DNA of 44,051 nt from a virus. Taxonomy: Duplodnaviria; Heunggongvirae; Uroviricota; Caudoviricetes. Position numbers and translations under genes: made by a program. The stretch's first letter is position 1, and the number at the start of each line of letters is the position of its first letter. This document shows positions 13,019-36,009 of this stretch, one piece after another. The notes below the pieces were generated by a model. The model made no database searches, was not told the origin of the DNA, and was given only the letters and a program-made list of their open reading frames with translations. The stretch lies in IMG/VR virus record IMGVR_UViG_3300045988_124839; one strand, given 5' to 3'.

Positions 13019-13984
13019 TTAATTATCAGTAGATTGTTCCTCTAGTAACAACTCAATTCTGCTTAGTATTTCTTTAGATATTTTTCGGCTATCAATTTTT
13101 ATAGTTACAAAATTACCTTTATATCTAGCCGTGATCCCTTCCCCATATTTTTTCTCGTCTTTTGTTTTTTCCTCGTCGCCAACCAGAACAGAGTCAGATA
13201 ATATTTGTATAATCCGTGAAGCTTCTAAATCCTCGCCGTTTTTTTTAATTGCCAGAAGATGATGAGCAGCATTGCTCATGGCAGCCATGTTTTTTTTGTA
13301 GACCTTAAACAAAGAATCTCCAGCACGAGCTGACAGTTCTCCTGGATGATTGAAGATAGCTAATATATCTTTTGGTAGACCAGCTGTATTAATACAGCGA
13401 GTGATAATATTTCTGTCTATATTTTCAGCCTCGGCTAATGCTTTAACGTTACCATCAAAGTCATTTAGCTTGCGTAAGTATCTCTTTCCTCTTTCGTATG
13501 CACTAATAGGCCTATAATCGTTACCAATTTGGGATAACCAATGCATCTGTTCATCGTCGAGATCACCTATTAAGACGCGATAGTCACATCCTGTTAATAT
13601 CGCTGCTTTTCTTCTACGTGAGCCGTCAGCGACTTCAACGATTCCAGACACTTTTCTGGCGAAAGCTGGATTTTGTTGTCCAGACGTTAGAAAAGATGGG
13701 ATTAAATCGGCTAGAGAGGATTCATTTAATAAATCTTGATCGCGTTCATTACCTAGCCATACCATTGTTGCCATTTCAACTTTATCTGCGGGAATTGTCT
13801 CTAACTTAAAGTTAACATTACGTCCGCATACTGGCAAAGTTATGCTGTTACCGGTTAATGAACTCAGTTGACGTTTTAAATCACCAACCATAGGTGATAC
13901 GGGCTGATGTTCAGGGGCATGATGATTATTACTCATAATGCGATTAATATCTGGAGCATTTTTTAGAAGAGAGCGCTGTTTCAT
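13019..13984 (-). CDS. sopB: partition protein SopB (ParB-type centromere-binding protein)
   Basis: 321 aa; immediately downstream of and overlapping (ATGA) the ParA-type ATPase gene; size and arrangement as F/N15 sopAB. Confidence 0.85.
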   Translation of the reverse strand: MKQRSLLKNAPDINRIMSNNHHAPEHQPVSPMVGDLKRQLSSLTGNSITLPVCGRNVNFKLETIPADKVEMATMVWLGNERDQDLLNESSLADLIPSFLTSGQQNPAFARKVSGIVEVADGSRRRKAAILTGCDYRVLIGDLDDEQMHWLSQIGNDYRPISAYERGKRYLRKLNDFDGNVKALAEAENIDRNIITRCINTAGLPKDILAIFNHPGELSARAGDSLFKVYKKNMAAMSNAAHHLLAIKKNGEDLEASRIIQILSDSVLVGDEEKTKDEKKYGEGITARYKGNFVTIKIDSRKISKEILSRIELLLEEQSTDN

Positions 13985-15150
13985 TATTCGTTCTCCCAGC
14001 GAGGTTTTATTAGATCATCAAAAATTTCTCGGCAAACAGGGTCCCATATAGAAACAGCATTTCTCCATGCATTCAATGTTGAACGTTGGTTTGCTGCTTG
14101 TTCAAATACTGTTCTCATTTTTATCTGGCCTTTACCTACTTCATCGGTAACGCGTACAACCTGACGTAATACCATTGATCCCCATGTATTTCTTATTTGT
14201 TCTTCCATCCATCGTGATTGATTCCCTGTAGTGAGACTATATTTAGTCAGAAGTAAGCGAACGGTTGGCTCAAATCCACCTAGGTCAACGCTTTCCAATA
14301 GATCGAGAAGCATTGTGAAAAACTGTAGAACAGAAGCGTAATCAAATAATTCTGCAGGTGTAGCAACAACAATAACGTCAGCGGCACAAACAACGTTAAT
14401 GGTTCCTGTACCGAGGTTCGGAGCACTATCTATAACGATAACATCGTAGTTATCCCAAACTGATTCAATAGCTGCGCGCAGCATAAGGTGTGGAGGATGA
14501 GGCAATTTACCCTGAGCATGATATTGCATGAGATCTGTTTCTATACGATGTAAAGCTAGGCAGCTAGGGATAATGTCTAGCCCAGGCCAACATGTTGGCT
14601 TTATAGCATATTCAGCGTTATCGCGTTCTCCTAAGTAAAATGGCAGTAAAGTATCCTCGGCATGGATATGTAAATCAGGAACATAACCGTGATACATAGA
14701 GGCCGTGCCTTGAGGATCGTTACCTTCAACCAAAAGAACACGATGACCTTGTAATGCTAACCATTGAGCTTGATGTACCGCAGACGATGTTTTATAAACG
14801 CCGCCTTTGTGTGACATAACGGCAAGCACAACAGGGTTTTTATCTTGTGGTCGTTGGTTTGGGTTGCCAAAAACTGCTCGCATACTGTTGATTTGATCTA
14901 TGGTATAACCAGCACGACGTTCAATTCTTCCTCTCATTTCAAAGTCAGGTGCAGGTAAACGCCCGCTCTTCTCAGCATCTCTAATTGCTTGAGGAGTTAC
15001 ACCAATTAAATCTGCTACTTCAGTTATACCCCATCGGCGGGTGATACGCCGAGCTTCAGGACTATCATCACCGAATTGAGCGATAGCAATTGCTTGGGTC
15101 ATTTCTTGACCTCTCGTAACACAATCTTGCAATAACTTTTTCAAAGACAT
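13984..15150 (-). CDS. sopA: partition ATPase SopA (ParA, type Ia with N-terminal HTH extension)
   Basis: 388 aa; deviant Walker A MSHKGGVYKTSS; long N-terminal extension typical of type Ia ParA. Confidence 0.9.
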   Translation of the reverse strand: MSLKKLLQDCVTRGQEMTQAIAIAQFGDDSPEARRITRRWGITEVADLIGVTPQAIRDAEKSGRLPAPDFEMRGRIERRAGYTIDQINSMRAVFGNPNQRPQDKNPVVLAVMSHKGGVYKTSSAVHQAQWLALQGHRVLLVEGNDPQGTASMYHGYVPDLHIHAEDTLLPFYLGERDNAEYAIKPTCWPGLDIIPSCLALHRIETDLMQYHAQGKLPHPPHLMLRAAIESVWDNYDVIVIDSAPNLGTGTINVVCAADVIVVATPAELFDYASVLQFFTMLLDLLESVDLGGFEPTVRLLLTKYSLTTGNQSRWMEEQIRNTWGSMVLRQVVRVTDEVGKGQIKMRTVFEQAANQRSTLNAWRNAVSIWDPVCREIFDDLIKPRWENE

Positions 15151-15586: not shown

Positions 15587-15628
15587 ACATAATTCCCCAT
15601 TATACGCGCGTATAATGGGGAATTATGT
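15587..15628. other. telRL: telRL-like telomere resolution site (42-bp perfect palindrome, protelomerase target)
   Basis: ACATAATTCCCCATTATACGCGCGTATAATGGGGAATTATGT is a perfect palindrome; core CCATTATACGCGCGTATAATGG matches the N15 telO core as recalled; 170 bp upstream of telN. Confidence 0.88.
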
Positions 15629-22900: not shown

Positions 22901-23907
22901 GTGGCAGATTTCCGGTCATTATCCAGTGCGCAGGTGATTTTTGCCGCCGGGTACATGTTTACCAGTTGTTCCACAACATGAACCATGTTGTTAGCGGATA
23001 CAGCGACAACCACAGCGTCAAAGCGTTTATCTTTTTTCGTGGCAAGCCAGATGGATGCACCAGTAGCAAAACCTTCTGTAACAGCGATGTTTTGCGCCCC
23101 TTTCAGCTCACCGATAACAAAGCAGGCACCGACGAAATCGCCGCTGGTTACTGCGCTGGTCTGGTATTTCCCACCTTGTTTGTCGATTCGCTGCCAACCC
23201 ACAATACGACCATCATAACGACCGTCCAGGTGAGCCAGAGGGATAGCCATATATGTGGTTGGCCCCCGGCTCCATTTCGCACTGTCGTGACTGGTCACGC
23301 GACGCACATCACATGAACTAAAAACGTCACGAATACCTTTTTTAATCGCATATGGCCATGAGCCGTCTTCAGCCGGAGCATGTTCCCACGCGCTGTGGAA
23401 TGCCAGCCATCCCAGCAAACGTTCATGGTCCATTTGGTTGTTTTTCAGGTCATTAATTCGTTTTTGTTCTTCACGGCGACGACGTGCTTCGGCCTGACGT
23501 TCTATTCTTTCCCGTTCTTCTTCCGGTTGTGCGACCACGGTCGCATTATTCCGTTGTTGCTCACGGCGATATTCAGAAAACAGGAAGGAGAAACCGCTCC
23601 ATGAGCCAGCATCGCTGCCTTTATGGACGAAGTTAATGAACGGGTAATCAATCCCTTTGCTGTGTTCCAGCCTGGAGTAAATTTCTACGCGTCCTTTCAG
23701 GCTCTTTTCGAGAGCTTCTGGAGATGTTTTATTGTATGAAGAGTAACGCTCACCCCCCCCGCGAGGGTTGAGTTGGATGTTGTCGGAACAGGCAGGCCAG
23801 TTGATACCAGCCATCTGTGCCAGCTCGGTTAGTTCATCCCGTGCTGCTTCAATTAGCGAGAACGGATCGCTGCCAAAGCGATCCGCATAGAAATCGTTTA
23901 ATGTCAT
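19912..23907 (-). CDS. repA: replication protein RepA (primase-helicase)
   Basis: 1331 aa; Walker A GMGSGKST; size and position (leftward, between telN and cB) as N15 RepA (about 1320 aa). Confidence 0.85.
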   Translation of the reverse strand: MTLNDFYADRFGSDPFSLIEAARDELTELAQMAGINWPACSDNIQLNPRGGGERYSSYNKTSPEALEKSLKGRVEIYSRLEHSKGIDYPFINFVHKGSDAGSWSGFSFLFSEYRREQQRNNATVVAQPEEERERIERQAEARRRREEQKRINDLKNNQMDHERLLGWLAFHSAWEHAPAEDGSWPYAIKKGIRDVFSSCDVRRVTSHDSAKWSRGPTTYMAIPLAHLDGRYDGRIVGWQRIDKQGGKYQTSAVTSGDFVGACFVIGELKGAQNIAVTEGFATGASIWLATKKDKRFDAVVVAVSANNMVHVVEQLVNMYPAAKITCALDNDRKSATEGKGNTGLRTGYEILSKFNDVRCVYPTFEDDPQMECSDFNDLHKLRGLRETARQLFATANRLKTGTDLLSLTLNRLKTIKRDNRRTFAKELLRAVDIGMLTCPVPNSPSDLFNMFCIVLREMGLENIYRATVKDHIARRLNKKCRIAQAPRSFSERITDPNKRPQHITYKRFETSVMTDDVLKYVQSLQGIVIVRAGMGSGKSTGLLRPLMHSSERGISVAHRVSLIGGLWEMMTEGKGVKADILHYQDPGYQEMAPYASKLTICINSIVKNCWQPLMRQHDYFGFDEATQGLRAVLSGRAMENPVAVFNTLIDALARTEQHPIMVDADANDLLVDLAELAMKRREELGLPAWLQIHVIELPVDVRNRETGEPIRVFYTEKDRIMTEVVKAVSDGEKIMLATDSSTFAEDVTATLRMHFPGKKFLCVNQKNKPEPEVEAFTNQPKKMVKKYDGLIYSPSISSGVSIEQKHFDRHFGMFCGEVVPSDAVQMLRRDRTAKEFIIGFDKARAKRETDPQKIERAFAQALLATAGMNGELTDVVFDGDRISMGVANTDFTRMKIKAAAIEATARNDYASNMICIMHSDGYKVSPLATDYAANDIGKDLRKEARDIVWEQTLDLHLNTETPQESEREELLKKRALTLEEQAKLVRWDIENELKLPVEEGTLKFYFDGARDKIRRYETMLLDEVTARRYDREEAAINFTYAYRQAGQWQYFVVTAMTREQADDVFKTKFPGIIDHKVKATPTVEVGARGFYALKSATLRQYFIDCGINPETMTGEATQERLKFARDNLMTAERRDLLNNVLHIGGFMTPKGKPKVPEALFKNICDSLGLKTGKRRGRDGDKRPTLRFVEPESAAFMLDILVQRQKDGLTLKTRKAEKTAIEMDRDLDLNIYMDDKTRSTNEQVQNAPHSVISEALAVLPVAVPESWAMSALSSEELATMSSWSSASIAMTFASLYLTEFMDHLSSNELRRLREYITGNSSCSYEEQGAFYG

Positions 23908-24813: not shown

Positions 24814-24840
24814 TTGTTGTTTATTGTTTATAATAACAAC

Positions 24841-25062: not shown

Positions 25063-25762
25063 GTATATACGCAGCTGCGTCTCTACGGCATTGGCTGATG
25101 TTCATTATCGCCAGCGTGGCATTCTGGAGGTCCAGCTTGAGCAGATGCGTCTCGGTAGGTCAGGACGGTTTAACAATAAACCAGTCCGGTCAATCAGTGT
25201 GGGGGATGATAACTCATACGAAGTGTCCGTTCCTGCTGAGCCGGTTAGATTCCACCAGGGGAAAACATTTAAACAATCATCAATGTTGCTCACTGATATT
25301 GATTTTCAGAGCGCCAGCTGGCGCAGGGCTATTGGTCAGTTGAATAACGAGGAATCAGCCTGGCTTTATTATTGCTACGGATGCAAGCCTGATTACAACA
25401 ATGATGTGATTGTTTGTCAGTGGTTATGGCTTGATTTTCTGGTTGCTCATTCGGGGGGCGGCTTAAAAAAAATGAAGGCCTCCACGAAAAAAGCCATGCG
25501 GAAATTGATTTATTACGCGGCACAGCAGGTTAAATCAGAACTTACGTGTGCTGAGGCAGTTGATGAGAGAGAACAGGACAGGCATCTGAGTTTTCTACTG
25601 AATATATCTATTGATAGCTGGAGACAAGATTATAAAGAACGTTGGCTTTTAATTAAGTCGCGATGTCTGAGCTTAAATCGAACTGCATTATTAAATGCGG
25701 CGGAGAAGCGCAGTGAAATCATCAAACGCCATCGGGCAGGAAGTGCCATTCTGCCTTTGTAA
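25052..25762 (+). CDS. hypothetical protein (236 aa), candidate regulator downstream of cro
   Basis: GTG start overlapping the cro 3' end; no recognisable motif; any Q-like antiterminator role is inferred from position only. Confidence 0.45.
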   Translation: MELEYIRSCVSTALADVHYRQRGILEVQLEQMRLGRSGRFNNKPVRSISVGDDNSYEVSVPAEPVRFHQGKTFKQSSMLLTDIDFQSASWRRAIGQLNNEESAWLYYCYGCKPDYNNDVIVCQWLWLDFLVAHSGGGLKKMKASTKKAMRKLIYYAAQQVKSELTCAEAVDEREQDRHLSFLLNISIDSWRQDYKERWLLIKSRCLSLNRTALLNAAEKRSEIIKRHRAGSAILPL

Positions 25763-25769
25763 ACAAGTT

Positions 25770-26015
25770 ATGTTCAGGAAACCGTCGAAGCCAGAATTAA
25801 GGTATTCGGGGGTAAGAAATGAATATGTTATCTGGTGTCCAACTTGTGGTTACAGGACACGACCAGATAGTAATAAGCAGTCTGTAATTGCCGATTGGTA
25901 TTTATCAAATCAGCCAGGTAATAAGCATATAGAAAATCTTTGGATTAAGCGTTACTTGGAAATCAGAGAGGGTGCGACCGTGGTCGCACAAGAAAATGAA
26001 AATAACGCCATTTAA
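25770..26015 (+). CDS. small zinc-ribbon-like protein
   Basis: From the internal ATG at 25770; CPTCGY motif; the 3' end contains centromere-like palindrome 1. Confidence 0.35.
   Translation: MFRKPSKPELRYSGVRNEYVIWCPTCGYRTRPDSNKQSVIADWYLSNQPGNKHIENLWIKRYLEIREGATVVAQENENNAI
25972..25989. other. SopB-binding-like centromere palindrome 1 (GTGCGACC-GT-GGTCGCAC)
   Basis: 8-bp inverted arms around a 2-bp centre, same architecture as the F sopC core TGGGACC-AC-GGTCCCA; one of four copies in the window. Confidence 0.7.
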
Positions 26016-26025
26016 GCAGGGGCCG

Positions 26026-26199
26026 ATGACGCATGATGAAGCAGAGCGTCTTTCAGATACTTATCGGCGGCGTGGTAAGAAAGTTCTGGTTGTTCGTTCT
26101 GATTTTTTAGGTGATGGATATTGCGTTTATGTTCATTTACCTGAATCAGAAAGAACGCCAAAACCATCCAGAACATATCAACAGAAAATTTGGGTATAG
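26026..26199 (+). CDS. hypothetical protein (about 57 aa)
   Basis: ORF fills the gap between neighbouring genes; start uncertain (ATG 25996 or 26026). Confidence 0.3.
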   Translation: MTHDEAERLSDTYRRRGKKVLVVRSDFLGDGYCVYVHLPESERTPKPSRTYQQKIWV

Positions 26200-26222
26200 A
26201 TAAACGTTGAGGAGAATTATTC

Positions 26223-26822
26223 GTGACTAATCAGATTATTTACGACAGGAAACGGTCTGATGTAATGATTGACCTTGAAACAATGGGTACTAACACATGT
26301 GCTCCAATTGTTTCTATCGGGGCAGTGTTTTTTTCTCCAGAAAGTGAGGAATTAGGTCCTACTTTTTATGTGCCAGTGAATCTCAGAAGCTCGATGTTGA
26401 ATGGTGGTATCGCCGATGGTGATACCATTTTATGGTGGTTGAAACAGAGCAAGGAAGCCAGAGCAGCTATTTGTACTAATGATGCCCTTGATATTAAGGA
26501 TGCACTTTTTGAATTATCACACTTTATTACTTGCCATGCATGTAATTTAAAAAAGTTGAAAGTATGGGGAAATGGAGCAACGTTCGATAATGTAATTTTA
26601 CGCGGTGCTTATGAGCGCGTTGGCTTAGCCTGTCCGTGGGAATATTTTAATGATCAGGATGTTCGAACAATCGTTAATCTTGGTCAGTTTATTGGTTTTA
26701 ATCCTAAAAAAGATATGCCATTTGATGGCGAACGACACAATGCCCTGGCTGATGCTATTCATCAGGCTAAATATGTATCCGCAATTTTCTCCCGTCTTGT
26801 AAAAGGGCAAGGAGAATCGTAA
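26223..26822 (+). CDS. DEDDh-type 3'-5' exonuclease
   Basis: Motif I MIDLETMG near the N-terminus and motif III H-x4-D (ERHNALADAIH) near the C-terminus; GAGGAG RBS before GTG start. Confidence 0.7.
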   Translation: MTNQIIYDRKRSDVMIDLETMGTNTCAPIVSIGAVFFSPESEELGPTFYVPVNLRSSMLNGGIADGDTILWWLKQSKEARAAICTNDALDIKDALFELSHFITCHACNLKKLKVWGNGATFDNVILRGAYERVGLACPWEYFNDQDVRTIVNLGQFIGFNPKKDMPFDGERHNALADAIHQAKYVSAIFSRLVKGQGES

Positions 26823-27244
26823 TGGCAAAGGCTTTTACACCAGAACAGAGGGAAGAACTGAATAAACAAATTGTGGAACTCGTGCGCCTGAATGGACGAG
26901 GAACGGTTAGGCAACTTGCGGATGAAACTGGTATTAGCCGGTGTGCTGTTAGTCGTTTATCAAGAGAGCTTGCTGCCAGTGGTGATTTGTATATCTCTGG
27001 CTCCGGGATATTTCTGTCTGCACAAGCACGCAAGGACTGGCAAAACGCCCGTAAAAAACTATCAAGAGTAAAGCCGAAGAAATCGGTAGTGGTTGATCCA
27101 GACCTTATCTGGTCATTACCTGACGGAGAAATACGTCGTTACGACAGGCGCTTGAACATGATTTGTCACGATTGCCAGAAGAGCGAAGTTATGCAGCGTG
27201 TGCTGGCGTTTTATCAGGGAAATCTTCAGGAGGTAGTACTGTGA
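26822..27244 (+). CDS. HTH / winged-helix DNA-binding protein
   Basis: 140 aa; HTH-like VRQLADETGISRCAVSRLSREL; AGGAG RBS; TAATG overlap with the upstream gene. Confidence 0.5.
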   Translation: MAKAFTPEQREELNKQIVELVRLNGRGTVRQLADETGISRCAVSRLSRELAASGDLYISGSGIFLSAQARKDWQNARKKLSRVKPKKSVVVDPDLIWSLPDGEIRRYDRRLNMICHDCQKSEVMQRVLAFYQGNLQEVVL

Positions 27245-27954
27245 GTGAAATCAATTATCAGGTACTGCGTGAAGCAGCTGAGAGCGCCAGTAAAATTAAC
27301 TGGACAGGCCTTGAAGATGATTTGAACGCTGATGGATATATGCGCACACTGACGCGGTATATCCAATGCCATTCACCGATTATTACGCTATCTCTGTTGG
27401 ATGAGCGAAATGCATTGAACGAACGCATAGCCGAACTGGAGGCTAATTTAGCGGCGATGACTGAAGACCACCAGAGAGCGATTGAGTCAATTAAGCAGGC
27501 TGATGCGGCTGTTAAGTTGGCACATGAGAAGTTTTCGGCGCTGGCAGCGGAGAATGCGGGGCTTAAGGCCTTCAAAACCGCCGTTTATCAGCAGATGGGC
27601 GTCGGATGTGATGCTCCTGAATTCTCCATTACGACAGGTTTGAGTAACTTACGTCGTTTTGCTGACACACTCCACGCCATTGAACGTGAGTTCTTTACCA
27701 AAGAGCTACCTGATGAAGAGCACGAAGGCGAAACATTCAATGAATGTCCACTTAGCTGGGGAATGAGCGTCGAACAGTACGTTTCCGAGTTTCGCAAATG
27801 CCTGGCTGAAGTGCGGGCGCAGGGATTGGAGATGTTTGCACAGAAATGTAACTCAAAATCCGAACAGTCGCTTGCATCTGATATACGCGATAACTGGAAA
27901 CTACTCGGTGAGCATGCGACTGACTTTGCCGCAGAGCTTCGCAAAGGAGAGTGA
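27241..27954 (+). CDS. Ead/Ea22-like protein (coiled-coil)
   Basis: GTG start with AGGAGG RBS overlapping the upstream stop; N-terminus VSEINYQVLREAAESA resembles ead/Ea22-like proteins as recalled; central coiled-coil. Confidence 0.45.
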   Translation: MSEINYQVLREAAESASKINWTGLEDDLNADGYMRTLTRYIQCHSPIITLSLLDERNALNERIAELEANLAAMTEDHQRAIESIKQADAAVKLAHEKFSALAAENAGLKAFKTAVYQQMGVGCDAPEFSITTGLSNLRRFADTLHAIEREFFTKELPDEEHEGETFNECPLSWGMSVEQYVSEFRKCLAEVRAQGLEMFAQKCNSKSEQSLASDIRDNWKLLGEHATDFAAELRKGE

Positions 27955-27955
27955 T

Positions 27956-28405
27956 ATGACCACTATTACCAGAGAAAGCTCGAAGATTAAATCATTCATC
28001 AATGGCTTCCTGAGCGACCCGGCGCACGATAATCAATCTTTAGACAGTCTGCTTGCTGATGTGTTTCGTATCGCACTGGCATCGTTGGAAGCAGAGCCAG
28101 TTGCGTGGCGATATTGCTACGTGAAAAAAGGCGTTACGGACTCTCAGGGGGAGTCGTGGGTTGGTGACTGGAAATATGTACCGACAAAAGAGGATTGCAA
28201 CGACAGACCGAACTATGAAATTCAGGCGTTATTCACGGCTCAGCCTGTGCCACTGACACAAGAAGGATTGATTAAAGCAGTGCGTTTCTATGAACAGGTA
28301 AAGCGCGAGAATCCGCCAGTCGAAACCGGAGCATGGAAAGACGCTGTTGACTGGGTGCTCAAAGAGGCTTGCCAGGCTGTAAACATTGGTACTAAAGGAG
28401 ATTGA
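27956..28405 (+). CDS. hypothetical protein (shares IALASLEAEPVAW motif with the next gene)
   Basis: AGGAG RBS; 149 aa; conserved 13-aa motif shared with the adjacent paralogue. Confidence 0.5.
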   Translation: MTTITRESSKIKSFINGFLSDPAHDNQSLDSLLADVFRIALASLEAEPVAWRYCYVKKGVTDSQGESWVGDWKYVPTKEDCNDRPNYEIQALFTAQPVPLTQEGLIKAVRFYEQVKRENPPVETGAWKDAVDWVLKEACQAVNIGTKGD

Positions 28406-28406
28406 T

Positions 28407-28820
28407 ATGAGCACTTTTACCGACAAAGAACTGATTAAAGAAATCAAAGAGCGCATAGGCAGCTTGGACGTGCGAGACAATATTGAGCGCCGGGCTTATG
28501 AAATAGCGTTAGCCTCGCTGGAAGCAGAACCGGTGGCATGGCTGCATTTAGACAATGGCTTAGGTATTCCGGCAATAACCCGGAGTAAAAACATTGCTGA
28601 CAGTTGGTTATCAAAGGGCTGGTATGTTCAGTCACTATATGTAGCCCAGCCACTGCCGGTGGTGCCGGATGATAATCGTATTCAGTTTTCTGTTTCACTT
28701 CCTGCAGCGTTTGGTGGAGATAAATATTTTATTGATGGTGTATTTCAACCTTTGAGATATGAGCGTGACTGTGAAAGGGCGGTTGTGGCCGCTGGCGGTG
28801 TAGTTAATTGGGTTAAGTAA
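28407..28820 (+). CDS. hypothetical protein (paralogous N-terminal module)
   Basis: AGGAG RBS; 137 aa; EIALASLEAEPVAW motif conserved despite synonymous DNA divergence. Confidence 0.5.
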   Translation: MSTFTDKELIKEIKERIGSLDVRDNIERRAYEIALASLEAEPVAWLHLDNGLGIPAITRSKNIADSWLSKGWYVQSLYVAQPLPVVPDDNRIQFSVSLPAAFGGDKYFIDGVFQPLRYERDCERAVVAAGGVVNWVK

Positions 28821-28835
28821 TTTTCAGGAGGATTT

Positions 28836-29162
28836 ATGGCGCTGACACCGGCAGAACGGCAAAGGAGACGCAGGGAACGGTTGAAGAAGGAAGGCACATC
28901 AAGACGGGACTGGATTCTAGAACCTGACGAGTTACGTATGTTGGGGGAAATTTGTGTATTGCGTAGACCAGGGCGAGTTCCATATTCGGAGAACGAAGTC
29001 ATTGGTTTGCTGATCAGGAAAAACTATAAGGAGCTGCAGAAGCAGCTATCCACTACTTGCCCGCGATGTGGTCAAAAAATGCCTGTTTCAGAATGCATTT
29101 TTGATGGCGAAGGGTCATGCCACCTTACAACCACGAGGCTGAAACTTGCGCTCAAAGCGTGA
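28836..29162 (+). CDS. hypothetical protein with C-terminal zinc-ribbon-like Cys cluster
   Basis: 108 aa; basic N-terminus (RQRRRRERLKK); CPRCGQ...C...C. Confidence 0.4.
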   Translation: MALTPAERQRRRRERLKKEGTSRRDWILEPDELRMLGEICVLRRPGRVPYSENEVIGLLIRKNYKELQKQLSTTCPRCGQKMPVSECIFDGEGSCHLTTTRLKLALKA

Positions 29163-29180
29163 CTGGTCACGGAGGGATAA

Positions 29181-29423
29181 ATGGATAAAAAGGCATTGCT
29201 TTTTGAAATGATACGAAAACGGAGCGAAAAGAGCTTTTCTGATGGTGGTGATGGGTTTGTTTTCGCTTCGATGCTTGCTTTTGATGTTGGGTTAAATAGC
29301 AGAATTGTTAAAAGGATGCTTGATTCTGCTGTCCGTACTGGACTTCTTGAGAAAGTTGATCGTGGCATAGGGAGAGAGCATAAGTATCGGGCCACACAGC
29401 AGTTTACGCAGTTAATTCATTGA
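29181..29423 (+). CDS. hypothetical protein (80 aa)
   Basis: ORF with GGAGGG upstream; no recognisable motif. Confidence 0.4.
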   Translation: MDKKALLFEMIRKRSEKSFSDGGDGFVFASMLAFDVGLNSRIVKRMLDSAVRTGLLEKVDRGIGREHKYRATQQFTQLIH

Positions 29424-29505
29424 AAATTGACCGTAAAGTTTGAGTTTTACCCTGTAATTTTATACAGTATAAATAACCTTTTTTAGTTAAATGGTATGAG
29501 ATTTA

Positions 29506-29709
29506 ATGTCTGAAGCAGCCGTATCAACTCTTGAACAACTCGATTCAAATTTAAGAGATATTGACGCCGTTCTGGATCTGGTTAGCGTCACCCTGGCTTC
29601 TCCAGAAGCCAGCCTACATATTGGTGAGGTTTCACGACTCATCAACATGTCGCGAGAGATTGCCCAGCATTGTCAGAAAACTATCGCTGTTGAGCGTTCA
29701 CATCATTGA
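29506..29709 (+). CDS. hypothetical protein (67 aa)
   Basis: ORF with weak RBS; AT-rich upstream region. Confidence 0.3.
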   Translation: MSEAAVSTLEQLDSNLRDIDAVLDLVSVTLASPEASLHIGEVSRLINMSREIAQHCQKTIAVERSHH

Positions 29710-29751
29710 TGCACACCCCGCCCTTCTGGACGGGGTAGTAAAAGAGTCTAA

Positions 29752-30039
29752 TTAATAAACAGCGCGAATATCGATGGTTGCGCCGCAGGCATGAGCATAT
29801 TTAGCCAAAGTTTTCATACTTGCCCCTAAAGGATTGCTTTCCAGGCGGCTGATGGCTGACGGTCGCAACCCCATTCGTTCAGCCAGAGCTGATTTCGTTA
29901 AACCTGCTCTTTCCCTCATTTCGTATAACATTTCGACCATCTCCAGCTCTTTGTCGGCCTCTTCATATCCTTTGACGGCTTCTGGAGTGTTGAGGAGTTT
30001 TTCTTTTACTTCGTTAAACGGGATGCCTTTCGCTTTCAT
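29752..30039 (-). CDS. HTH (XRE-family) antitoxin, HigA-like
   Basis: 95 aa; HTH LTKSALAERMGLRPSAISRLE; start overlaps the stop of the upstream toxin gene (TGATG); toxin-first order as in HigBA/Tad-Ata modules. Confidence 0.7.
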   Translation of the reverse strand: MKAKGIPFNEVKEKLLNTPEAVKGYEEADKELEMVEMLYEMRERAGLTKSALAERMGLRPSAISRLESNPLGASMKTLAKYAHACGATIDIRAVY

Positions 30040-30350
30040 CAGTTCATCTCCTTCAGGCGAGTTCTGGCGATTTCGATAGCCTTCACCGGTGTTTTCTGTG
30101 TCTTTTTTACAAATGCATGCAATAGATAAATTTCGTTACCAGTCGCGTAGGCGTACAGCGTTCTTGCGATGTTTTTATCCCCTACTCGTAGTTCAAAAAG
30201 CCCTCCACCTATTACACGGCTATGGGGCATCTTCAGTTTGTTGCCTTCTTTCTCCAGTCGCTCAATTAATCTGGTCATGCGACCTCGCAAATCATCTGGT
30301 AGTTCAAGCAGTTCATCCAGTGCTGCAGGGTGGGTTATCACGTTAAACAT
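30039..30350 (-). CDS. RelE/HigB-type toxin (Gp49-like)
   Basis: From the internal ATG at 30350 (GGAGG RBS 7 nt upstream); about 103 aa beginning MFNVITHPAALDELLEL; small basic RelE/ParE-superfamily-like protein. Confidence 0.68.
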   Translation of the reverse strand: MFNVITHPAALDELLELPDDLRGRMTRLIERLEKEGNKLKMPHSRVIGGGLFELRVGDKNIARTLYAYATGNEIYLLHAFVKKTQKTPVKAIEIARTRLKEMN

Positions 30351-30515
30351 ATTATAGCCTCCATATCCATAAAATACACTAAAACAAGAAAACAACGCAA
30401 ATTAAAAATTTCACTAAAAAGCGAAAAATAACACTGGATGTGTTCGTTTGGCAGAGTTACAGTTCGTGTCATTGAGGGGCAATAACCCACTAACTATATG
30501 AATTTGGAGGATATT

Positions 30516-30737
30516 ATGAATTATCAAGGTAACGAAAAAATGCGCGACGACGTTGCGGAGATAGCTAACGAACTGTATGAGTTGTGGCAGAAGGTTGAGC
30601 GTTTCGAAAAGGAATATGGTTTCAACAGTACCAACCTAACAGACCGACTGGCTGGTCGCTTAGTTGGGACTATGGGGCCAAAACTGGCTGAGTTGAACCG
30701 CTTTATGGCTGATGTTGATTTCCAGTTTCAAGATTGA
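30516..30737 (+). CDS. hypothetical protein (73 aa)
   Basis: GGAGG RBS 6 nt before the ATG at 30516 (ORF track starts at 30498). Confidence 0.45.
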   Translation: MNYQGNEKMRDDVAEIANELYELWQKVERFEKEYGFNSTNLTDRLAGRLVGTMGPKLAELNRFMADVDFQFQD

Positions 30738-30750
30738 TTAGAGAGGCGTT

Positions 30751-30978
30751 ATGAATATTAATGAAATTCGTGGAAATATGACTGAAGCGGCCCTGAGTGT
30801 GGAATGTGTTATGCGTGGATACCCACGCATTTCCCTGAAAGAGTTAAGCGAAGCCTGTTTTTTGAGTCAAGCTGCCGTTGAATTTATCATCGAACAGATG
30901 ATCTGTTTTGGGGTTGCAAAGCGTAGCGGATCTGGTCGATATTCTTTGACCGATGAATATAAGCAGGCAACTTTCTAA
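30751..30978 (+). CDS. hypothetical protein (75 aa, possible HTH)
   Basis: AGAGAGG RBS; ends 5 bp before centromere-like palindrome 2. Confidence 0.45.
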   Translation: MNINEIRGNMTEAALSVECVMRGYPRISLKELSEACFLSQAAVEFIIEQMICFGVAKRSGSGRYSLTDEYKQATF

Positions 30979-30983
30979 AAGCT

Positions 30984-31001
30984 GTGCGACCACGGTCGCA
31001 C
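30984..31001. other. SopB-binding-like centromere palindrome 2 (GTGCGACC-AC-GGTCGCAC)
   Basis: Same 8-2-8 palindrome as site 1 with the centre inverted; about 20 bp upstream of a putative promoter. Confidence 0.7.
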
Positions 31002-31020
31002 AGCACAAAAACGAAAAAGC

Positions 31021-31049
31021 TTGGCAAAATGACGGTTTTTAGTTATTGT
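31021..31049 (+). promoter_or_regulatory. putative sigma70 promoter (candidate late promoter, PR'-like)
   Basis: TTGGCA, 17-bp spacer, TATTGT; followed within about 60 nt by a hairpin and an intrinsic terminator, as in lambda PR'-qut-tR'. Confidence 0.3.
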
Positions 31050-31087
31050 TTTGTTAAGTTGGGTTTTTTGTACCCAACAGCCAACAA

Positions 31088-31110
31088 GCCGCCTTTATGG
31101 CGGTTTTTTT
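31088..31110 (+). terminator. rho-independent terminator (tR'-like)
   Basis: GCCGCC-TTTAT-GGCGG followed by TTTTTTT; upstream of the methylase and lysis genes. Confidence 0.6.
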
Positions 31111-31200
31111 GTGCCTGAAAAGTGGGCGCAGGACAAGTTGCAGCTTGTCCTGCGGTCAACCCATGCCAGAGCTATAGGCTGAACCTAAAGCCCACCCGCG

Positions 31201-32322
31201 ATGCGCATCGCCGGGTTAGCTTACCCAGGCAAAAAAATAATAGCTATGTTCAAAACCACTAATATTCATGGCGCACAACTCGTTTGCGCAGATTCTCTGC
31301 AATTTATCAAAACCATCCCTGATAACTCGGTCAATTTGATTGCAACAGACCCACCATACTTCGGCGTAAAAGCTAACGCATGGGATAACCAGTGGGATAG
31401 CGATGCTGACTTTTTGGGGTGGATTGACGAATTTTTGGCAGAATTTTGGCGGATATTGGCCCCTAATGGCAGCCTGTATATGTTTACCGGCTCTCGCCTT
31501 GCGTCAAAAATTGAATTATTAACTCGCGACCGTTTCAATGTTCTGAACCATATCATTTGGGCTAAACCCAGTGGTATGTGGCGCGGTTGTCATAAAGAAA
31601 GTTTAAGGGCTTATTTTCCTGCTACTGAAAGAATATTATTTGCAGAGCATTACGGCGCGTCAGGTTATGCTAAAGGTCAGTCAGGTTATGCTTCAAAATG
31701 TGCAGATTTAAGAAAAAATATTTTTTCTCCACTAATTGATGCTTTTTCGCTGGCTCGCCGTCAGTTAGATATATCAGCCGCAGACATTAATTCAGCGACA
31801 GGAAAGCAGATGTGTTCACACTGGTTTTCTTATTCGCAGTGGCGGCTTCCATCATTAATTGATTTTAATAAACTATGCGAATTATTTCGCAGGAAGGCAG
31901 ATTCACTCGGTGTCCCGTGTCCATATCCTTTTAATGTTGATTATTCAGAACATGAAAAGCGTTATAGCGTTCTGAAATTGCATTATGAGGAAGTAAAGAA
32001 GCAGTATGATGATTTGAAGGCTCAGTATGAAAATTTACGCCGTCCATTTCATGTTACTGCTGATGTACCTTATACCGATGTATGGGAGTTTCCTCCTGTG
32101 CAATATTATCCTGGCAAGCACCCATGTGAAAAACCTGCAGCGATGATGGAACATATTATAAAGAGTAGTTCACGCCCCGGAGATATCGTTGCCGATTTCT
32201 TTATGGGATCAGGCTCAACTATTAAAGCTGCGCTGAAGTTAGGACGTCAGGCAATAGGTATTGAGATTGAGGGCGAACGTTATCTTCAGACAGTTGATGA
32301 AGTGAAAAAGTTATTTGAGTAA
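31201..32322 (+). CDS. DNA N6-adenine methyltransferase (beta class)
   Basis: DPPY catalytic motif (NLIATDPPYFGV) N-terminal to the AdoMet motif FxGxGS (DFFMGSGST); alternative start at ATG 31246. Confidence 0.85.
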   Translation: MRIAGLAYPGKKIIAMFKTTNIHGAQLVCADSLQFIKTIPDNSVNLIATDPPYFGVKANAWDNQWDSDADFLGWIDEFLAEFWRILAPNGSLYMFTGSRLASKIELLTRDRFNVLNHIIWAKPSGMWRGCHKESLRAYFPATERILFAEHYGASGYAKGQSGYASKCADLRKNIFSPLIDAFSLARRQLDISAADINSATGKQMCSHWFSYSQWRLPSLIDFNKLCELFRRKADSLGVPCPYPFNVDYSEHEKRYSVLKLHYEEVKKQYDDLKAQYENLRRPFHVTADVPYTDVWEFPPVQYYPGKHPCEKPAAMMEHIIKSSSRPGDIVADFFMGSGSTIKAALKLGRQAIGIEIEGERYLQTVDEVKKLFE

Positions 32323-32417
32323 CTGGAGAATATATTCCCCTGCCGTTTTTGGTAGGGGTTATTTTCGCCATATAGTTTCCAAGCCGAAACCTCAGCAACT
32401 ATTGCGAGGTAAGAGAT

Positions 32418-32690
32418 ATGAAGATGGATGAACGATACAGCAGTGCATCTTATGGTAGCGCTGGTCTTGCTGCGTTCTTTGCCAGCCTGTCATTGCAGGA
32501 TTGGGGCTTCATTATCGGTGTCGCGTTCAGCATTATCCTCGGTGTGCTTACATACCGGCTCAATAAACGCGAGCAGATGAAGCGCACGAAGATATTGCAG
32601 GACATATTGGATAAAACTAATACCAATAATCTTTCTGCTACAGCGATGGTTATTGGAGAGCTGGGGAAGAGAGCACCGAAGGAAATATGA
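32418..32690 (+). CDS. class II holin (S21-like pinholin) with dual-start motif
   Basis: Begins MKM (two in-frame starts separated by Lys); two transmembrane segments ([12 protein letters not shown] / [18 protein letters not shown]); charged C-terminus; directly upstream of endolysin. Confidence 0.7.
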
Positions 32691-33187
32691 TGCAGTCATC
32701 ATTACGCAAAGCTGTCACAGCTGCTATTGGTGGCGGGGCTATTGCCATAGCGTCTATGCTCATCACTGGCCCAAGTGGTAACGATGGTCTGGAAGGTGTC
32801 AGTTACATACCATACAAAGATATTGTTGGCGTATGGACTGTATGTCACGGACACACCGGAAAAGACATCATGCTCGGTAAAACGTATACCGAAGCAGAAT
32901 GCAAAGCCCTCCTGAATAAAGACCTTGCCACGGTTGCCAGACAAATTAACCCGTACATCAAAGTCGATATACCGGAAACAACGCGCGGCGCTCTTTACTC
33001 GTTCGTCTACAACGTGGGTGCTGGCAATTTCAGAACATCGACGCTTCTTCGCAAAATAAACCAGGGCGATATTAAAGGCGCATGTGACCAGCTACGTCGC
33101 TGGATATACGCTGGCGGTAAGCAATGGAAAGGCCTGATGACTCGTCGTGAGATTGAGCGTGAAGTCTGTTTGTGGGGGCAACAATGA
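32687..33187 (+). CDS. endolysin (T4-lysozyme-like, GH24) with N-terminal SAR signal-anchor
   Basis: Weakly hydrophobic Gly/Ala-rich N-terminus [18 protein letters not shown]; catalytic Glu-8aa-Asp-5aa-Thr pattern ([18 protein letters not shown]); ATGA overlap with holin stop. Confidence 0.88.
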
Positions 33188-33621
33188 GCAGAGTAACCGC
33201 GATTATCTCCGCTCTGGTTATCTGCATCATCGTCTGCCTGTCGTGGGCGGTCAATCATTACCGTGATAACGCCATCGCCTACAAAGAGCAGCGCGATAAA
33301 GCCACATCCACAATCGCTGATATGCAGAAGCGTCAACGTGACGTAGCAGAACTCGATGCCAGATATACAAAGGAGCTTGCTGATGCTAACGCGACTATCG
33401 AAAGCCTCCGTGCTGATGTTTCTGCTGGGCGTAAGCGCCTGCAAGTCGCCGCCACCTGTGCAAAGTCAACGACCGGAGCCAGCGGCATGGGCAATGGAGA
33501 AAGCCCAAGACTTACAGCAGATGCTGAACTCAATTATTACCGTCTCCGAAGTGGGATCGACAGGATAACTGCGCAGGTTAACTACTTGCAGGAATACATC
33601 AAGACGCAATGCCTGAATTAA
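33184..33621 (+). CDS. Rz: i-spanin Rz
   Basis: ATG overlaps the endolysin stop; N-terminal transmembrane segment [23 protein letters not shown] then coiled-coil; lambda Rz-like sequence. Confidence 0.8.
33356..33568 (+). CDS. Rz1: o-spanin Rz1 (lipoprotein embedded in Rz, +1 frame)
   Basis: Embedded ORF with lipobox LLGVSAC followed by a Pro-rich segment ([13 protein letters not shown]); true start may be the internal Met at 33383. Confidence 0.6.
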
Positions 33622-33662
33622 TCCCTCTGTATCAAAAACGAGCTCAATTTGTTGGATAGTGA

Positions 33663-33974
33663 ATGAAAATTTATATTGCCGGGCCAATGACGGGATATGA
33701 GAACTTTAATCGTGACGCCTTTAATAAAGAGGCAGATCGTTTGTCACGACATGGTCACTCTGTCTTGAATCCAGCCACTTTGCCTAATGGTCTGACACAA
33801 CGTGAATACATGGATATTTGCTTTGCAATGCTTCGTTGTGCTGATGCTATTTTGATGCTTCCTGGCTGGAAAGCGTCTGCTGGAGAAACTGCTGAGTATC
33901 ATTACGCATACAAGATGGAGATGCAGGTATTCACTACGCTGAATTACCCGCCAGCTTGTTCCTCTGTAGCATAA
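33663..33974 (+). CDS. DUF4406-family protein (nucleoside 2-deoxyribosyltransferase-like fold)
   Basis: MKIYIAGPMTGYENFNR...NPA...CDAILMLPGWKAS.G pattern characteristic of DUF4406. Confidence 0.6.
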   Translation: MKIYIAGPMTGYENFNRDAFNKEADRLSRHGHSVLNPATLPNGLTQREYMDICFAMLRCADAILMLPGWKASAGETAEYHYAYKMEMQVFTTLNYPPACSSVA

Positions 33975-33993
33975 AAATCTCTTTGTTTCTCGT

Positions 33994-34011
33994 TTGCGAC
34001 CGTGGTCGCAC
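33994..34011. other. SopB-binding-like centromere palindrome 3 (TTGCGACC-GT-GGTCGCAC)
   Basis: 8-2-8 palindrome with one mismatch at the first base. Confidence 0.65.
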
Positions 34012-34021
34012 ATTAAATACC

Positions 34022-34193
34022 GCGCTGCATCGTCGCCGTATTTCCGCATTAACCATGACCGTAGCCCGACGGGGAACTCCTCTGCGCGAGTGTGCGGAAA
34101 TAATCAAAAACGATGCACACCGGGTTTTTACCGCGCTAATGATTCGCGGGTTTGTCCCTCATGCTCGCCAGTCCTGTGCGAGGGTGGAAGAAA
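34022..34193. repeat. 172-bp direct repeat, copy A (conserved lambdoid intergenic element)
   Basis: About 85% identical to copy B at 35807-35978, with shared blocks CCGTAGCCCGACGGGGAACTCC and ATAATCAAAAACGATGCACACCGGGTTTTTACCGCG; lies between palindromes 3 and 4. Confidence 0.8.
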
Positions 34194-34213
34194 CAGGGCA
34201 TGTATTCAGGAGC

Positions 34214-34231
34214 GTGCGACCGTGGTCGCAC
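34214..34231. other. SopB-binding-like centromere palindrome 4 (GTGCGACC-GT-GGTCGCAC)
   Basis: Perfect copy of the site-1 sequence, 23 bp upstream of the cassette gene start. Confidence 0.7.
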
Positions 34232-34254
34232 GGTATCTTTGTCAGGAGGTTTTG

Positions 34255-35115: not shown

Positions 35116-35240
35116 CCAGTTTTGTTTTGCAGAACATCCTCAATTAAAAGCTTATAGAAAGAGAGCCTGAGATATTTTTTCTGTCTCTCGTAGTTGTTTA
35201 TTTTTTTTTCGAACAGGCTTACAACTTACAGGATATAAAT

Positions 35241-35806: not shown

Positions 35807-35978
35807 GCGCTGTATCGTCGCCGTATTCCCGTATTAACAGAGACCGTAGCCCGACGGGGAACTCCTTCTGCGCGAGTGTGCGGGAATAATCAAAAACGAT
35901 GCACACCGGGTTTTTACCGCGTTTATGGTGCGCGATTTTGTCCCTCATAGTCGCCCGTCCGGTGCGATGGTGGAAGAA
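35807..35978. repeat. 172-bp direct repeat, copy B (adjacent to cos)
   Basis: Direct repeat of 34022-34193; ends about 70 bp upstream of the cosN-like sequence. Confidence 0.8.
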
Positions 35979-36009
35979 GCCGGATATTAATGCAAGTGAT
36001 AATTATTCT

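What the first reader, a model, noticed from the sequence alone, without database searches (positions are those of the whole stretch)
25972..34231. Four dispersed SopB-type centromere palindromes instead of a sopC array next to sopB
GTGCGACC-NN-GGTCGCAC occurs at 25972, 30984, 33994 and 34214 and nowhere adjacent to sopAB. The 8-2-8 architecture and sequence resemble the F sopC core (TGGGACC-AC-GGTCCCA). N15 is known to use dispersed centromere sites. Site 2 sits just upstream of the putative late promoter, and sites 3 and 4 bracket repeat copy A immediately upstream of the accessory cassette, so SopB binding or spreading could silence these regions in the lysogen.
Basis: partly seen in the sequence, partly recalled or inferred. 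Interest (0 to 1): 0.7.

Follow-up and report, generated by a model that had tools for sequence, protein, structure and literature searches.

The report
N15-type dispersed plasmid-partition sites
The repeated 18-base palindromes are the scattered docking sites for the SopB partition protein of an N15-like linear plasmid-prophage; there are five rather than four, and this arrangement is already known from phage N15, so the finding is real but ordinary.

Summary
The window is an N15-like telomere phage. It encodes a protelomerase, a telRL palindrome, RepA and SopAB, and is 97.8% identical to Escherichia phage PhiR46_1.

The palindrome is real and far above chance, but there are five copies, not four:
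- 25972
- 30984
- 33994, whose first base is T, not G
- 34214

All five carry the intact 16-bp core TGCGACC-NN-GGTCGCA. This is the core of the experimentally used N15 SopB sites IR1–IR4.

Four positions are syntenic with N15 and with the four sites annotated as "putative plasmid partitioning site" in phiKO2. They lie in the repA 5' coding region, after Q, 19 nt upstream of the late promoter -35, and after the DUF4406 gene.

The SopB recognition helix reads D-R-N, as in N15 and phiKO2. F and PY54 read S-R-K and use TGGGACC sites, so protein and site co-vary.

The fifth site (34214) ends a lambdoid Rz-to-cos spacer element. The same element also occurs, with the same palindrome, in integrative lambdoid prophages that lack sop genes.

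Site number varies from 4 to 8 or more across the family.

The silencing idea is untested. The title of the published N15 study says the Sop system facilitates late gene expression.

Verdict: a new member of a known kind, of low interest.

The parts
23529..23546 (.). SopB site equivalent to N15 IR1, GTGCGACCACGGTCGCAT. The 16-bp core is perfect.
   Evidence: Homologous flanks and the same codons are found in N15 (33479) and phiKO2 (37905, annotated as a putative partitioning site).
25972..25989 (.). SopB site equivalent to N15 IR2, GTGCGACCGTGGTCGCAC, 210 bp downstream of the Q gene.
   Evidence: Flanks are 70-75% identical to N15 35930 and phiKO2 40345, while the core arms are 100% identical.
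30984..31001 (.). SopB site equivalent to N15 IR3, GTGCGACCACGGTCGCAC. Here it is extended to a 24-bp palindrome (AGCT/AGCA flanks). It ends 19 nt upstream of the late promoter -35.
   Evidence: It aligns with N15 41124 (-35 annotated at 41162) and phiKO2 45384 (late promoter -35 annotated at 45421).
33994..34011 (.). SopB site IR4a, TTGCGACCGTGGTCGCAC. The outermost base is mismatched and the 16-bp core is perfect. It lies 20 nt after the DUF4406 gene, the position syntenic with phiKO2 site 4 and PY54 44409.
34214..34231 (.). SopB site IR4b, GTGCGACCGTGGTCGCAC, at the 3' end of lambdoid element copy A and 23 nt upstream of the first accessory ORF. It is also a hairpin followed by a weak T run.
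13019..13984 (-). sopB (321 aa), a ParB-family centromere-binding protein. The recognition segment is GNVKALAEAENIDRNIITRCIN.
   Evidence: 73% identity to N15 SopB; PF18090 SoPB_HTH; NF010252, 407.6 bits against a cut-off of 274
13984..15150 (-). sopA (388 aa), the type Ia ParA ATPase.
   Evidence: 93% identity to N15 SopA; PRK13705, 734.3 bits against a cut-off of 725
15587..15628 (.). telRL, a 42-bp perfect palindrome between sopA and the protelomerase gene. This is where the linear prophage is opened.
   Evidence: protelomerase 15799-17706; PhiR46_1 telL/telR annotation
31021..31106 (+). Q-dependent late promoter (-35 TTGGCA 31021-31026, -10 TATTGT 31044-31049) and its downstream terminator hairpin (31086-31106).
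   Evidence: Aligned to the features annotated in N15 and phiKO2.
34022..34208 (+). Lambdoid 'Rz-to-cos spacer' element, copy A, bracketed by IR4a and IR4b.
35807..35994 (+). Copy B of the same element (85-90% identical), not followed by a SopB site. Together with copy A it flanks the two accessory ORFs 34255-35115 and 35241-35690.

Best explanation
The five palindromes are the centromere (parS-like) sites of an N15-type SopABC partition system on a linear plasmid-prophage.

Proposed mechanism. A SopB dimer recognises each 16-bp inverted repeat TGCGACC-NN-GGTCGCA through its helix-turn-helix. As for other ParB proteins, the bound sites nucleate loading and spreading of further SopB, so the 10.7-kb stretch that holds the sites forms the partition complex. 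SopA, a ParA ATPase on the nucleoid, then positions and separates sister plasmids.

Layout. The sites are not next to sopAB. They sit in repA, after Q, 19 nt upstream of the late promoter, and twice between the DUF4406 gene and the cos-proximal accessory cassette. This is the N15, phiKO2 and PY54 layout with the fourth position doubled.

Origin of the doublet. The site syntenic with phiKO2 and PY54, after DUF4406, is 33994. The second copy (34214) is the terminal palindrome of a lambdoid Rz-to-cos spacer element that this lineage shares by recombination with integrative lambdoid prophages.

Regulation. Because one site abuts the late promoter and one follows Q, SopB binding very probably also modulates late transcription, as reported for N15. 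The direction of that effect in this phage is not established.

Shown here: sequence identity of the sites to the N15 sites, synteny, the presence and type of SopA and SopB, and co-variation between protein and site.
Inferred: actual binding, spreading, partition activity and any regulatory effect.
For: 1. The replicon is N15-like.
- It is 97.8% identical to the linear plasmid-prophage PhiR46_1 over 20000-36000.
- It has protelomerase domains, RepA and an N15-type Q.
- It has a 42-bp telRL palindrome.

2. The sites equal the N15 sites.
- N15 has the same motif at 33479, 35930, 41124 and 45561.
- PMC7205306 Table 4 lists the IR1-IR4 oligonucleotides with this core and shows N15 SopB foci on them.

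3. The positions are syntenic.
- Flanks are homologous at IR1-IR3.
- phiKO2 annotates four 'putative plasmid partitioning site' features at the same four positions.
- The gap between the site and the -35 hexamer is 19-20 nt in all three phages.

4. The proteins are of the right kind.
- SopA is 93% and SopB 73% identical to those of N15.
- Both pass the NCBIfam equivalog cut-offs.

5. Protein and site co-vary.
- PMC2910045 places all sequence specificity in N15 SopB residues 179-200 and notes that the residues flanking the conserved Arg differ between F and N15.
- The window, N15, phiKO2 and PhiR46_1 read D-R-N and have TGCGACC sites.
- F and PY54 read S-R-K and have TGGGACC sites, dispersed in PY54 at the same syntenic spots.
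- The equivalents of Arg190, Arg195 and Arg219 are conserved.

6. The sites look constrained.
- Core arms are 93-100% identical across the window, N15 and phiKO2. Flanks are 70-79% identical at IR1 and IR2.
- Inside repA the four-fold-degenerate third positions of GCG-ACC-GTG-GTC never vary, although neighbouring codons vary synonymously.

7. The motif is far above chance: 0 exact matches expected.
Against: - No binding or partition experiment exists for this phage.
- SopB is only 73% identical to N15 SopB, and four residues of the 22-residue specificity segment differ from N15. Three of those four are shared with phiKO2, which has the same sites.
- The conservation statistics from IMG/VR loci are biased, because those loci were retrieved with the motif itself.
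- Site 34214 also occurs, perfect, in lambdoid prophages without SopB. At the homologous position phage 2B8 has a symmetric double change that keeps a hairpin. For this one copy, the palindrome may therefore have, or have had, a role unrelated to SopB.
- In its GenBank record, the N15 IR4 is annotated as a putative terminator stem-loop.
Confidence: 0.9

Rival explanations
1. The palindromes are transcription hairpins, meaning rho-independent terminators or RNA processing or stability stem-loops, and not protein-binding centromere sites.
For: - Each copy can fold into a 7-8 bp G+C-rich hairpin of -10 to -20 kcal/mol.
- 34214 on the + strand was picked up by the terminator scan.
- The N15 IR4 is annotated as a putative terminator stem-loop.
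- In sop-less lambdoid phage 2B8 the homologous palindrome carries a symmetric double change that keeps the pairing (GTGCAACC..GGTTGCAC).
Against: - Only 34214(+), and weakly 30984(-), are followed by a T run.
- 23529 lies inside a coding region, and 30984 lies upstream of a promoter.
- Independent terminators would not share an identical 16-bp sequence at five places in this phage, nor the same sequence in N15, phiKO2 and an Enterobacter phage.
- The arm sequence switches to TGGGACC exactly where the SopB recognition helix switches to S-R-K, in PY54 and F. A hairpin model does not predict this.
Confidence: 0.05
2. In the lysogen, SopB bound at 30984 and at 33994/34214 spreads and silences the late promoter and the accessory cassette.
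For: - Induced N15 SopB silences a weak promoter about 50 bp from an artificial 4xIR array (PMC7205306).
- 30984 ends 19 nt from the -35 hexamer.
- 34214 lies 23 nt upstream of the first cassette ORF.
Against: [quoted passage not shown]
- The silencing needed four clustered sites and induced SopB.
- The late operon is already kept off in the lysogen, because Q is absent and there is a terminator at 31086-31106.
- No promoter for the cassette was identified above chance: 10 promoter-like hits against 10.7 expected.
Confidence: 0.2
3. The palindromes are operators for a different phage-encoded dimeric DNA-binding protein (a repressor, Cro-like or XRE-type regulator, or the protelomerase), and their resemblance to N15 sites is coincidental to partition.
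For: Palindromic 8-2-8 sites are typical of many HTH dimers. Several sites lie in regulatory intergenic regions.
Against: - The CB operators of N15 are annotated elsewhere, next to the repressor gene.
- telRL is a different palindrome.
- The sequence is the one used experimentally as the N15 SopB target.
- It co-varies with the SopB helix.
Confidence: 0.02

Closest known systems
Phage N15 centromere sites IR1-IR4 with N15 SopA and SopB (Ravin & Lane 1999; used in PMC7205306)
   Same: - The 16-bp core TGCGACC-NN-GGTCGCA is identical.
- The sites are dispersed, and none is next to sopAB.
- The positions are the same: the repA 5' region, after Q, about 20 nt upstream of the late promoter -35, and near the cos-proximal end of the right arm.
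- SopA is 93% and SopB 73% identical, and the D-R-N recognition motif is the same.
   Different: - There are five sites instead of four, because the fourth position is doubled, 220 bp apart.
- The flanks of IR4 are unrelated to those in N15, where IR4 follows gene 58.
- The window's IR1 has a perfect 16-bp core, whereas the N15 GenBank IR1 has one core mismatch.
Klebsiella phage phiKO2 'putative plasmid partitioning sites'
   Same: Four sites with the same core lie at the same four syntenic positions. The fourth comes directly after the DUF4406 / nucleoside deoxyribosyltransferase-like gene, as 33994 does here.
   Different: phiKO2 has no doublet and no lambdoid spacer element. Its structural genes are HK97-like.
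Escherichia phages PhiR46_1 and YDC107_1
   Same: They have the same five-site layout, including the 220-bp doublet around the same element. DNA identity is 97-98% in the right arm.
   Different: Both doublet sites are perfect 18-mers in those phages, whereas here the first base of 33994 is T. SopB is only 83-84% identical. Neither record annotates the sites.
F plasmid sopC
   Same: It is the same family of SopA and SopB proteins. The 16-bp inverted repeat differs at one base per arm (TGGGACC against TGCGACC).
   Different: F has 12 tandem 43-bp repeats directly downstream of sopB. Here there is no array and no F-type site.
Yersinia phage PY54 SpyAB
   Same: It is a telomere phage with dispersed palindromes at the same syntenic positions: repA, after Q, before the methylase and late region, and after DUF4406.
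   Different: It uses the F-type core TGGGACC-NN-GGTCCCA, with 8 perfect and 3 near-perfect copies, and an S-R-K recognition helix.

Membership tests
N15-type Sop partition system (type Ia ParABS with dispersed IR centromere sites) | Encodes a SopA-type ParA ATPase | tested here: met
   NCBIfam PRK13705 equivalog, 734.3 bits against a cut-off of 725. 93% identity to N15 SopA.
N15-type Sop partition system (type Ia ParABS with dispersed IR centromere sites) | Encodes a SopB-type ParB with the SopB HTH domain | tested here: met
   PF18090, 7.3e-25. NF010252, 407.6 bits against a cut-off of 274. 73% identity to N15 SopB. Matches the F SopB structures 3mky, 3mkw and 3mkz.
N15-type Sop partition system (type Ia ParABS with dispersed IR centromere sites) | The SopB specificity segment (N15 residues 179-200) is of the N15 type, not the F type | tested here: met
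   D-R-N surrounds the conserved Arg in the window, N15, phiKO2 and PhiR46_1, against S-R-K in F and PY54. The segment is defined in PMC2910045. Four of its 22 residues differ from N15.
N15-type Sop partition system (type Ia ParABS with dispersed IR centromere sites) | The centromere sites are 16-bp inverted repeats TGCGACC-NN-GGTCGCA | tested here: met
   Five perfect 16-bp cores. The same core is in the N15 genome and in the published IR1-IR4 oligonucleotides.
N15-type Sop partition system (type Ia ParABS with dispersed IR centromere sites) | The sites are dispersed, away from sopAB, at conserved positions (repA, after Q, upstream of the late promoter, the cos-proximal end of the right arm) | tested here: met
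   There is no array near sopB.
N15-type Sop partition system (type Ia ParABS with dispersed IR centromere sites) | SopB binds the sites, and each site with SopAB in trans stabilises a plasmid | not testable with these tools
   This needs EMSA, ChIP and stabilisation assays. It is shown only for N15 in the literature.
N15-type Sop partition system (type Ia ParABS with dispersed IR centromere sites) | The replicon is a linear plasmid-prophage with a protelomerase and telRL | tested here: met
   TelK/ResT domains. A 42-bp perfect palindrome at 15587-15628. The close relative PhiR46_1 is annotated with telL and telR.
F-type sopC centromere | A tandem array of 43-bp repeats directly downstream of sopB | tested here: not met
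   Tandem Repeats Finder on 11000-19000 finds only short, unrelated repeats.
F-type sopC centromere | Core TGGGACC-NN-GGTCCCA | tested here: not met
   The best matches are the five N15-type sites, each with 2 mismatches.
Rho-independent terminator | A G+C-rich hairpin immediately followed by a T/U run on the transcribed strand | tested here: inconclusive
   The hairpins are present. Only 34214(+), and weakly 30984(-), have a T-rich tail. The feature is not met for 23529, 25972 and 33994.

The most novel reading that the evidence does not exclude
The doubled fourth site is a trace of module exchange between plasmid-prophages and integrative lambdoid prophages. The unit 'lambdoid spacer element + perfect N15-type SopB palindrome + cos' circulates in sop-less lambdoid prophages, including E. 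coli chromosomes.

If those chromosomal copies bind SopB, a resident lambdoid prophage could act as a decoy centromere. It could tether or destabilise an incoming N15-like plasmid-prophage, giving partition-based incompatibility between phages. Conversely, the SopB palindrome could serve as a recombination or insulation boundary for the variable cos-proximal accessory cassette.
Probability: 0.1. Interest if true: 0.5.

Novelty: new member of a known kind. Interest (0 to 1): 0.2.

Why it matters
It matters mainly for annotation. N15-like (Ravinvirus-type) phage-plasmids of E. coli, such as PhiR46_1 and YDC107_1, are deposited without centromere features. This analysis places five SopB sites in them and in this window.

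It also gives a simple sequence rule linking the SopB recognition helix to the centromere arm:
- D-R-N goes with TGCGACC.
- S-R-K goes with TGGGACC.
The rule holds across six systems (the window, N15, phiKO2, PhiR46_1, F and PY54).

The analysis also shows that site number is fluid in the family, from 4 to 8 or more. One site class is shared with integrative lambdoid prophages.

None of this changes the known picture of N15 partition. The only open biological question it sharpens is whether SopB at the promoter-proximal site helps or hinders late transcription.

Tried and rejected
- An F-type sopC array or F-type sites are absent.
- SopB half-sites near the sopAB promoter, as a sign of autoregulation through these sites, were not found.
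- The terminator-only reading fails for most copies.
- Rfam at gathering threshold found nothing at any of the sites. It found only the C4 antisense RNA and isrK in the immA-like region.
- I tried to read the primary N15 papers: Ravin & Lane 1999 (PMC94163), Ravin, Rech & Lane 2008 (PMC2394991 and its DOI) and Casjens 2004 (PMC355964). None is held. What I say about their content beyond the titles, and beyond what PMC7205306 and PMC2910045 report, is from memory and is marked as such.
- Conservation statistics from the IMG/VR loci were computed but down-weighted, because the loci were retrieved by exact match to the motif.
- I first took the 14 E. coli chromosomes that carry the perfect palindrome as independent occurrences. 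At least two of them (M18 and CI5) carry the same degraded prophage at mdtA, so they represent few events.
- Pfam and NCBIfam gave nothing for the two accessory ORFs. PHROGs gave only families of unknown function.

Full report
**1. Observation**

The pattern GTGCGACC-NN-GGTCGCAC occurs exactly at 25972, 30984 and 34214. Dinucleotide-preserving shuffles give 0.00 expected matches. With mismatches allowed there are five copies. The two extra ones are 33994 (TTGCGACCGTGGTCGCAC) and 23529 (GTGCGACCACGGTCGCAT). Each departs only at one outermost base. The expected count at up to 3 mismatches is 0.21, and no shuffle reached five.

All five share a perfect 16-bp core TGCGACC-NN-GGTCGCA. Start-to-start spacings are 2443, 5012, 3010 and 220 bp. 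Ten of the fifteen TGCGACC half-sites in the window belong to these palindromes. The other five are at chance level, and none is near sopAB. No tandem array lies near sopB, and no F-type site exists.

**2. What the window is**

The right arm is 97.8% identical to Escherichia phage PhiR46_1, a linear plasmid-prophage annotated with telL and telR. It is more distantly related to N15 and phiKO2. The window encodes:
- SopB at 13019-13984(-) and SopA at 13984-15150(-)
- a protelomerase at 15799-17706
- RepA at 19912-23907(-)
- an N15-type Q at 25052-25762
- a DNA methylase at 31201-32322
- a DUF4406 protein at 33663-33974

A 42-bp perfect palindrome at 15587-15628 is the telRL site. In the linear prophage, sopAB therefore sits at one telomere. 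The sites lie 8-19 kb from the other telomere, as in PhiR46_1 (sites at 7.9, 10.4, 14.8, 17.8 and 18.0 kb; sopBA at 43.7-45.8 kb).

**3. Identity of the sites**

N15 carries the same motif at 33479 (in gene 37, repA), 35930 (after gene 40, Q), 41124 and 45561. The 41124 site ends 20 nt before the annotated late-promoter -35.

PMC7205306 lists the natural IR1-IR4 sequences with this core. It uses them as the N15 centromere, on which N15 SopB forms foci. The phiKO2 record annotates four 'putative plasmid partitioning site' features at the same four positions.

The window's first three sites have flanks homologous to those of N15 and phiKO2. The region around 30984 aligns with both annotated late promoters. 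This places TTGGCA at 31021-31026, TATTGT at 31044-31049 and the terminator hairpin at 31086-31106. The site at 33994 lies 20 nt after the DUF4406 gene, as do phiKO2 site 4 and a PY54 site.

**4. The protein side**

SopA is 93% and SopB 73% identical to those of N15. PMC2910045 reports three relevant facts:
- N15 SopB residues 179-200 hold all determinants of sequence specificity.
- The F and N15 centromeres differ by one nucleotide per half-site.
- The residues next to the conserved Arg190 differ between the two proteins.

In an alignment, the window, N15, phiKO2 and PhiR46_1 read D-R-N at that place, while F SopB and PY54 SpyB read S-R-K. PY54 has no N15-type site. It has eight perfect and three near-perfect F-type cores TGGGACC-NN-GGTCCCA, dispersed and including the same syntenic positions. 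Protein and site thus co-vary across six systems. This is the strongest computational support that this SopB reads these palindromes. The equivalents of Arg190, Arg195 and Arg219 are conserved.

**5. Constraint**

Between the window, N15 and phiKO2, which were found by overall similarity and not by the motif, the arm bases are 93-100% identical. The 120 nt of flanks are 70-79% identical at IR1 and IR2.

Inside repA the site encodes A-T-V-V-A. The third positions of GCG, ACC, GTG and GTC never change, although neighbouring conserved codons vary synonymously. The numbers are small, so this is supportive only. Conservation measured on IMG/VR loci is biased by how those loci were found.

**6. The doublet**

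The 202 bp between 33994 and 34214 contain a 187-bp element (34022-34208). A second copy at 35807-35994 is 85-90% identical. The two copies flank two ORFs of unknown function, at 34255-35115 and 35241-35690.

The element is widespread in lambdoid and Stx phages between Rz and cos. It is absent from N15 and phiKO2. In many IMG/VR contigs a single element is followed, 6 nt later, by the perfect palindrome and then by cos and the terminase genes. One such contig has a lambdoid nin region with Q of the PF03589 type, RusA, YbcO and NinB.

The same 44-nt stretch is 100% identical on the chromosomes of 14 of 5,426 complete E. coli genomes. At least two of these carry the same degraded integrase-bearing prophage at mdtA.

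At the homologous position other prophages show variants:
- The integrative phage 2B8 has GTGCAACCGTGGTTGCAC, a symmetric double change.
- Two chromosomal prophages have GTGTGACTGTGGTCGCAA and GTGCGACCGTGGCCGCAC.

So 34214 belongs to a module exchanged with sop-less lambdoid prophages, where the palindrome drifts. The site at 33994 is the one syntenic with phiKO2 and PY54. PhiR46_1, YDC107_1 and at least ten IMG/VR loci share the 220-bp doublet.

**7. Family context**

The number of sites with at most one core mismatch per genome is:

| Genome | Sites |
|---|---|
| N15 | 4 |
| phiKO2 | 4 |
| Enterobacter phage MStein-2023a | 4 |
| PhiR46_1 | 5 |
| This window | 5 |
| Klebsiella phage 48ST307 | 7 |
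| PY54 (F-type core) | 8 perfect + 3 near-perfect |

The 48ST307 set includes a 47-bp doublet before the methylase and a site after the capsid gene. A further 28 IMG/VR loci carry the post-capsid context. Five sites is therefore ordinary variation.

**8. Mechanism**

*Shown:* the sites, the proteins, the synteny and the co-variation.

*Inferred from established ParB biology and from N15 experiments:* SopB dimers bind the five cores, load and spread to build one partition complex over about 11 kb, and SopA segregates the plasmids.

*Regulatory coupling is likely,* because the promoter-proximal position is conserved to within 1 nt in three phages. Its direction is open. Induced N15 SopB silences a weak promoter next to a 4xIR array. 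The N15 study of this very question, however, is titled as showing that Sop facilitates late gene expression (reference; the text is not held).

**9. Rivals**

A pure hairpin or terminator reading fails. Only 34214(+), and weakly 30984(-), have a T-rich tail, and hairpins would not co-vary with the SopB helix. It may still apply as a second role for 34214. Another regulator as the binding protein is very unlikely.

**10. Verdict**

The feature is real, and its core interpretation is correct. It is the known N15-type dispersed centromere in a new member of the family, with a lineage-specific doubled fourth site. Interest is low (0.2). The most novel reading still open is that SopB palindromes carried by integrative lambdoid prophages interact with N15-like plasmids (probability about 0.1).

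Noticed in passing
window 34022-34208 and 35807-35994: Two copies, 85-90% identical, of a 187-bp non-coding element flank two ORFs of unknown function: 34255-35115 (phrog_2571) and 35241-35690 (phrog_3054). The element is common between Rz and cos in lambdoid and Stx phages. It looks like a recombination linker through which the cassette was inserted.
   Followed up: partly
L127 20068 (E. coli M18 chromosome), L130 (CI5), L046 5986-6003, L011 1607-1624: A perfect N15-type SopB palindrome sits at the end of the same element in integrative lambdoid prophages that have no sopAB. Fourteen of 5,426 complete E. coli genomes carry the 44-nt stretch unchanged on the chromosome, and at least two of them in the same degraded prophage at mdtA.
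   Followed up: partly
L126 48654-48671 (phage 2B8); L128 12068; L129 12068: At the homologous position, lambda-like phage 2B8 has GTGCAACCGTGGTTGCAC, a symmetric double change that keeps the hairpin but not the SopB core. Two chromosomal prophages have asymmetric decayed versions.
   Followed up: partly
L125 (PY54) 508, 6566, 26513, 31240, 34394, 39870, 40976, 44409: PY54 carries eight perfect dispersed F-type cores TGGGACC-NN-GGTCCCA, plus three near-perfect ones at 22251, 30984 and 41121. Its SpyB recognition helix reads S-R-K as in F SopB. The record does not annotate them.
   Followed up: yes
L132 (Klebsiella phage 48ST307) 15133/15180, 18427/18581, 27548: This phage has seven N15-type sites. 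They include a 47-bp doublet just before the methylase and late region and one directly after the capsid gene. Twenty-eight IMG/VR loci carry the post-capsid context, with the palindrome extended by ctct/agag.
   Followed up: partly
L001 (N15) 33479-33496: The N15 GenBank sequence reads GAGCGACCACGGTCGCAC at IR1, with one mismatch inside the 16-bp core. The IR1 oligonucleotide printed in PMC7205306 Table 4 has the perfect GTGCGACCACGGTCGCAC.
   Followed up: no
window 18360-18446(-) and 18472-18545(-): Rfam matches above gathering score to the C4 antisense RNA (73.6 bits) and isrK (62.5 bits). They lie downstream of the protelomerase gene, where N15 has its anti-immunity (immA) region.
   Followed up: no
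window 13019-13984(-): SopB is only 83-84% identical to that of PhiR46_1, although the right arm is about 98% identical at the DNA level. The partition module is therefore mosaic relative to the closest relative.
   Followed up: no
window 1-2284 and 43649-44051: The window starts inside the tape-measure gene and ends after the FII-like gene. Compared with PhiR46_1, it lacks about 2.9 kb of tail genes (Z, U, V, G, T and the start of H). It is permuted relative to both the virion (cos) and prophage (telRL) maps.
   Followed up: no
window 30980-31005: At the promoter-proximal site the palindrome extends beyond the 18-mer (AGCTGTGCGACCACGGTCGCACAGCA) and folds at -20 kcal/mol. The extension is not conserved in N15.
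   Followed up: no
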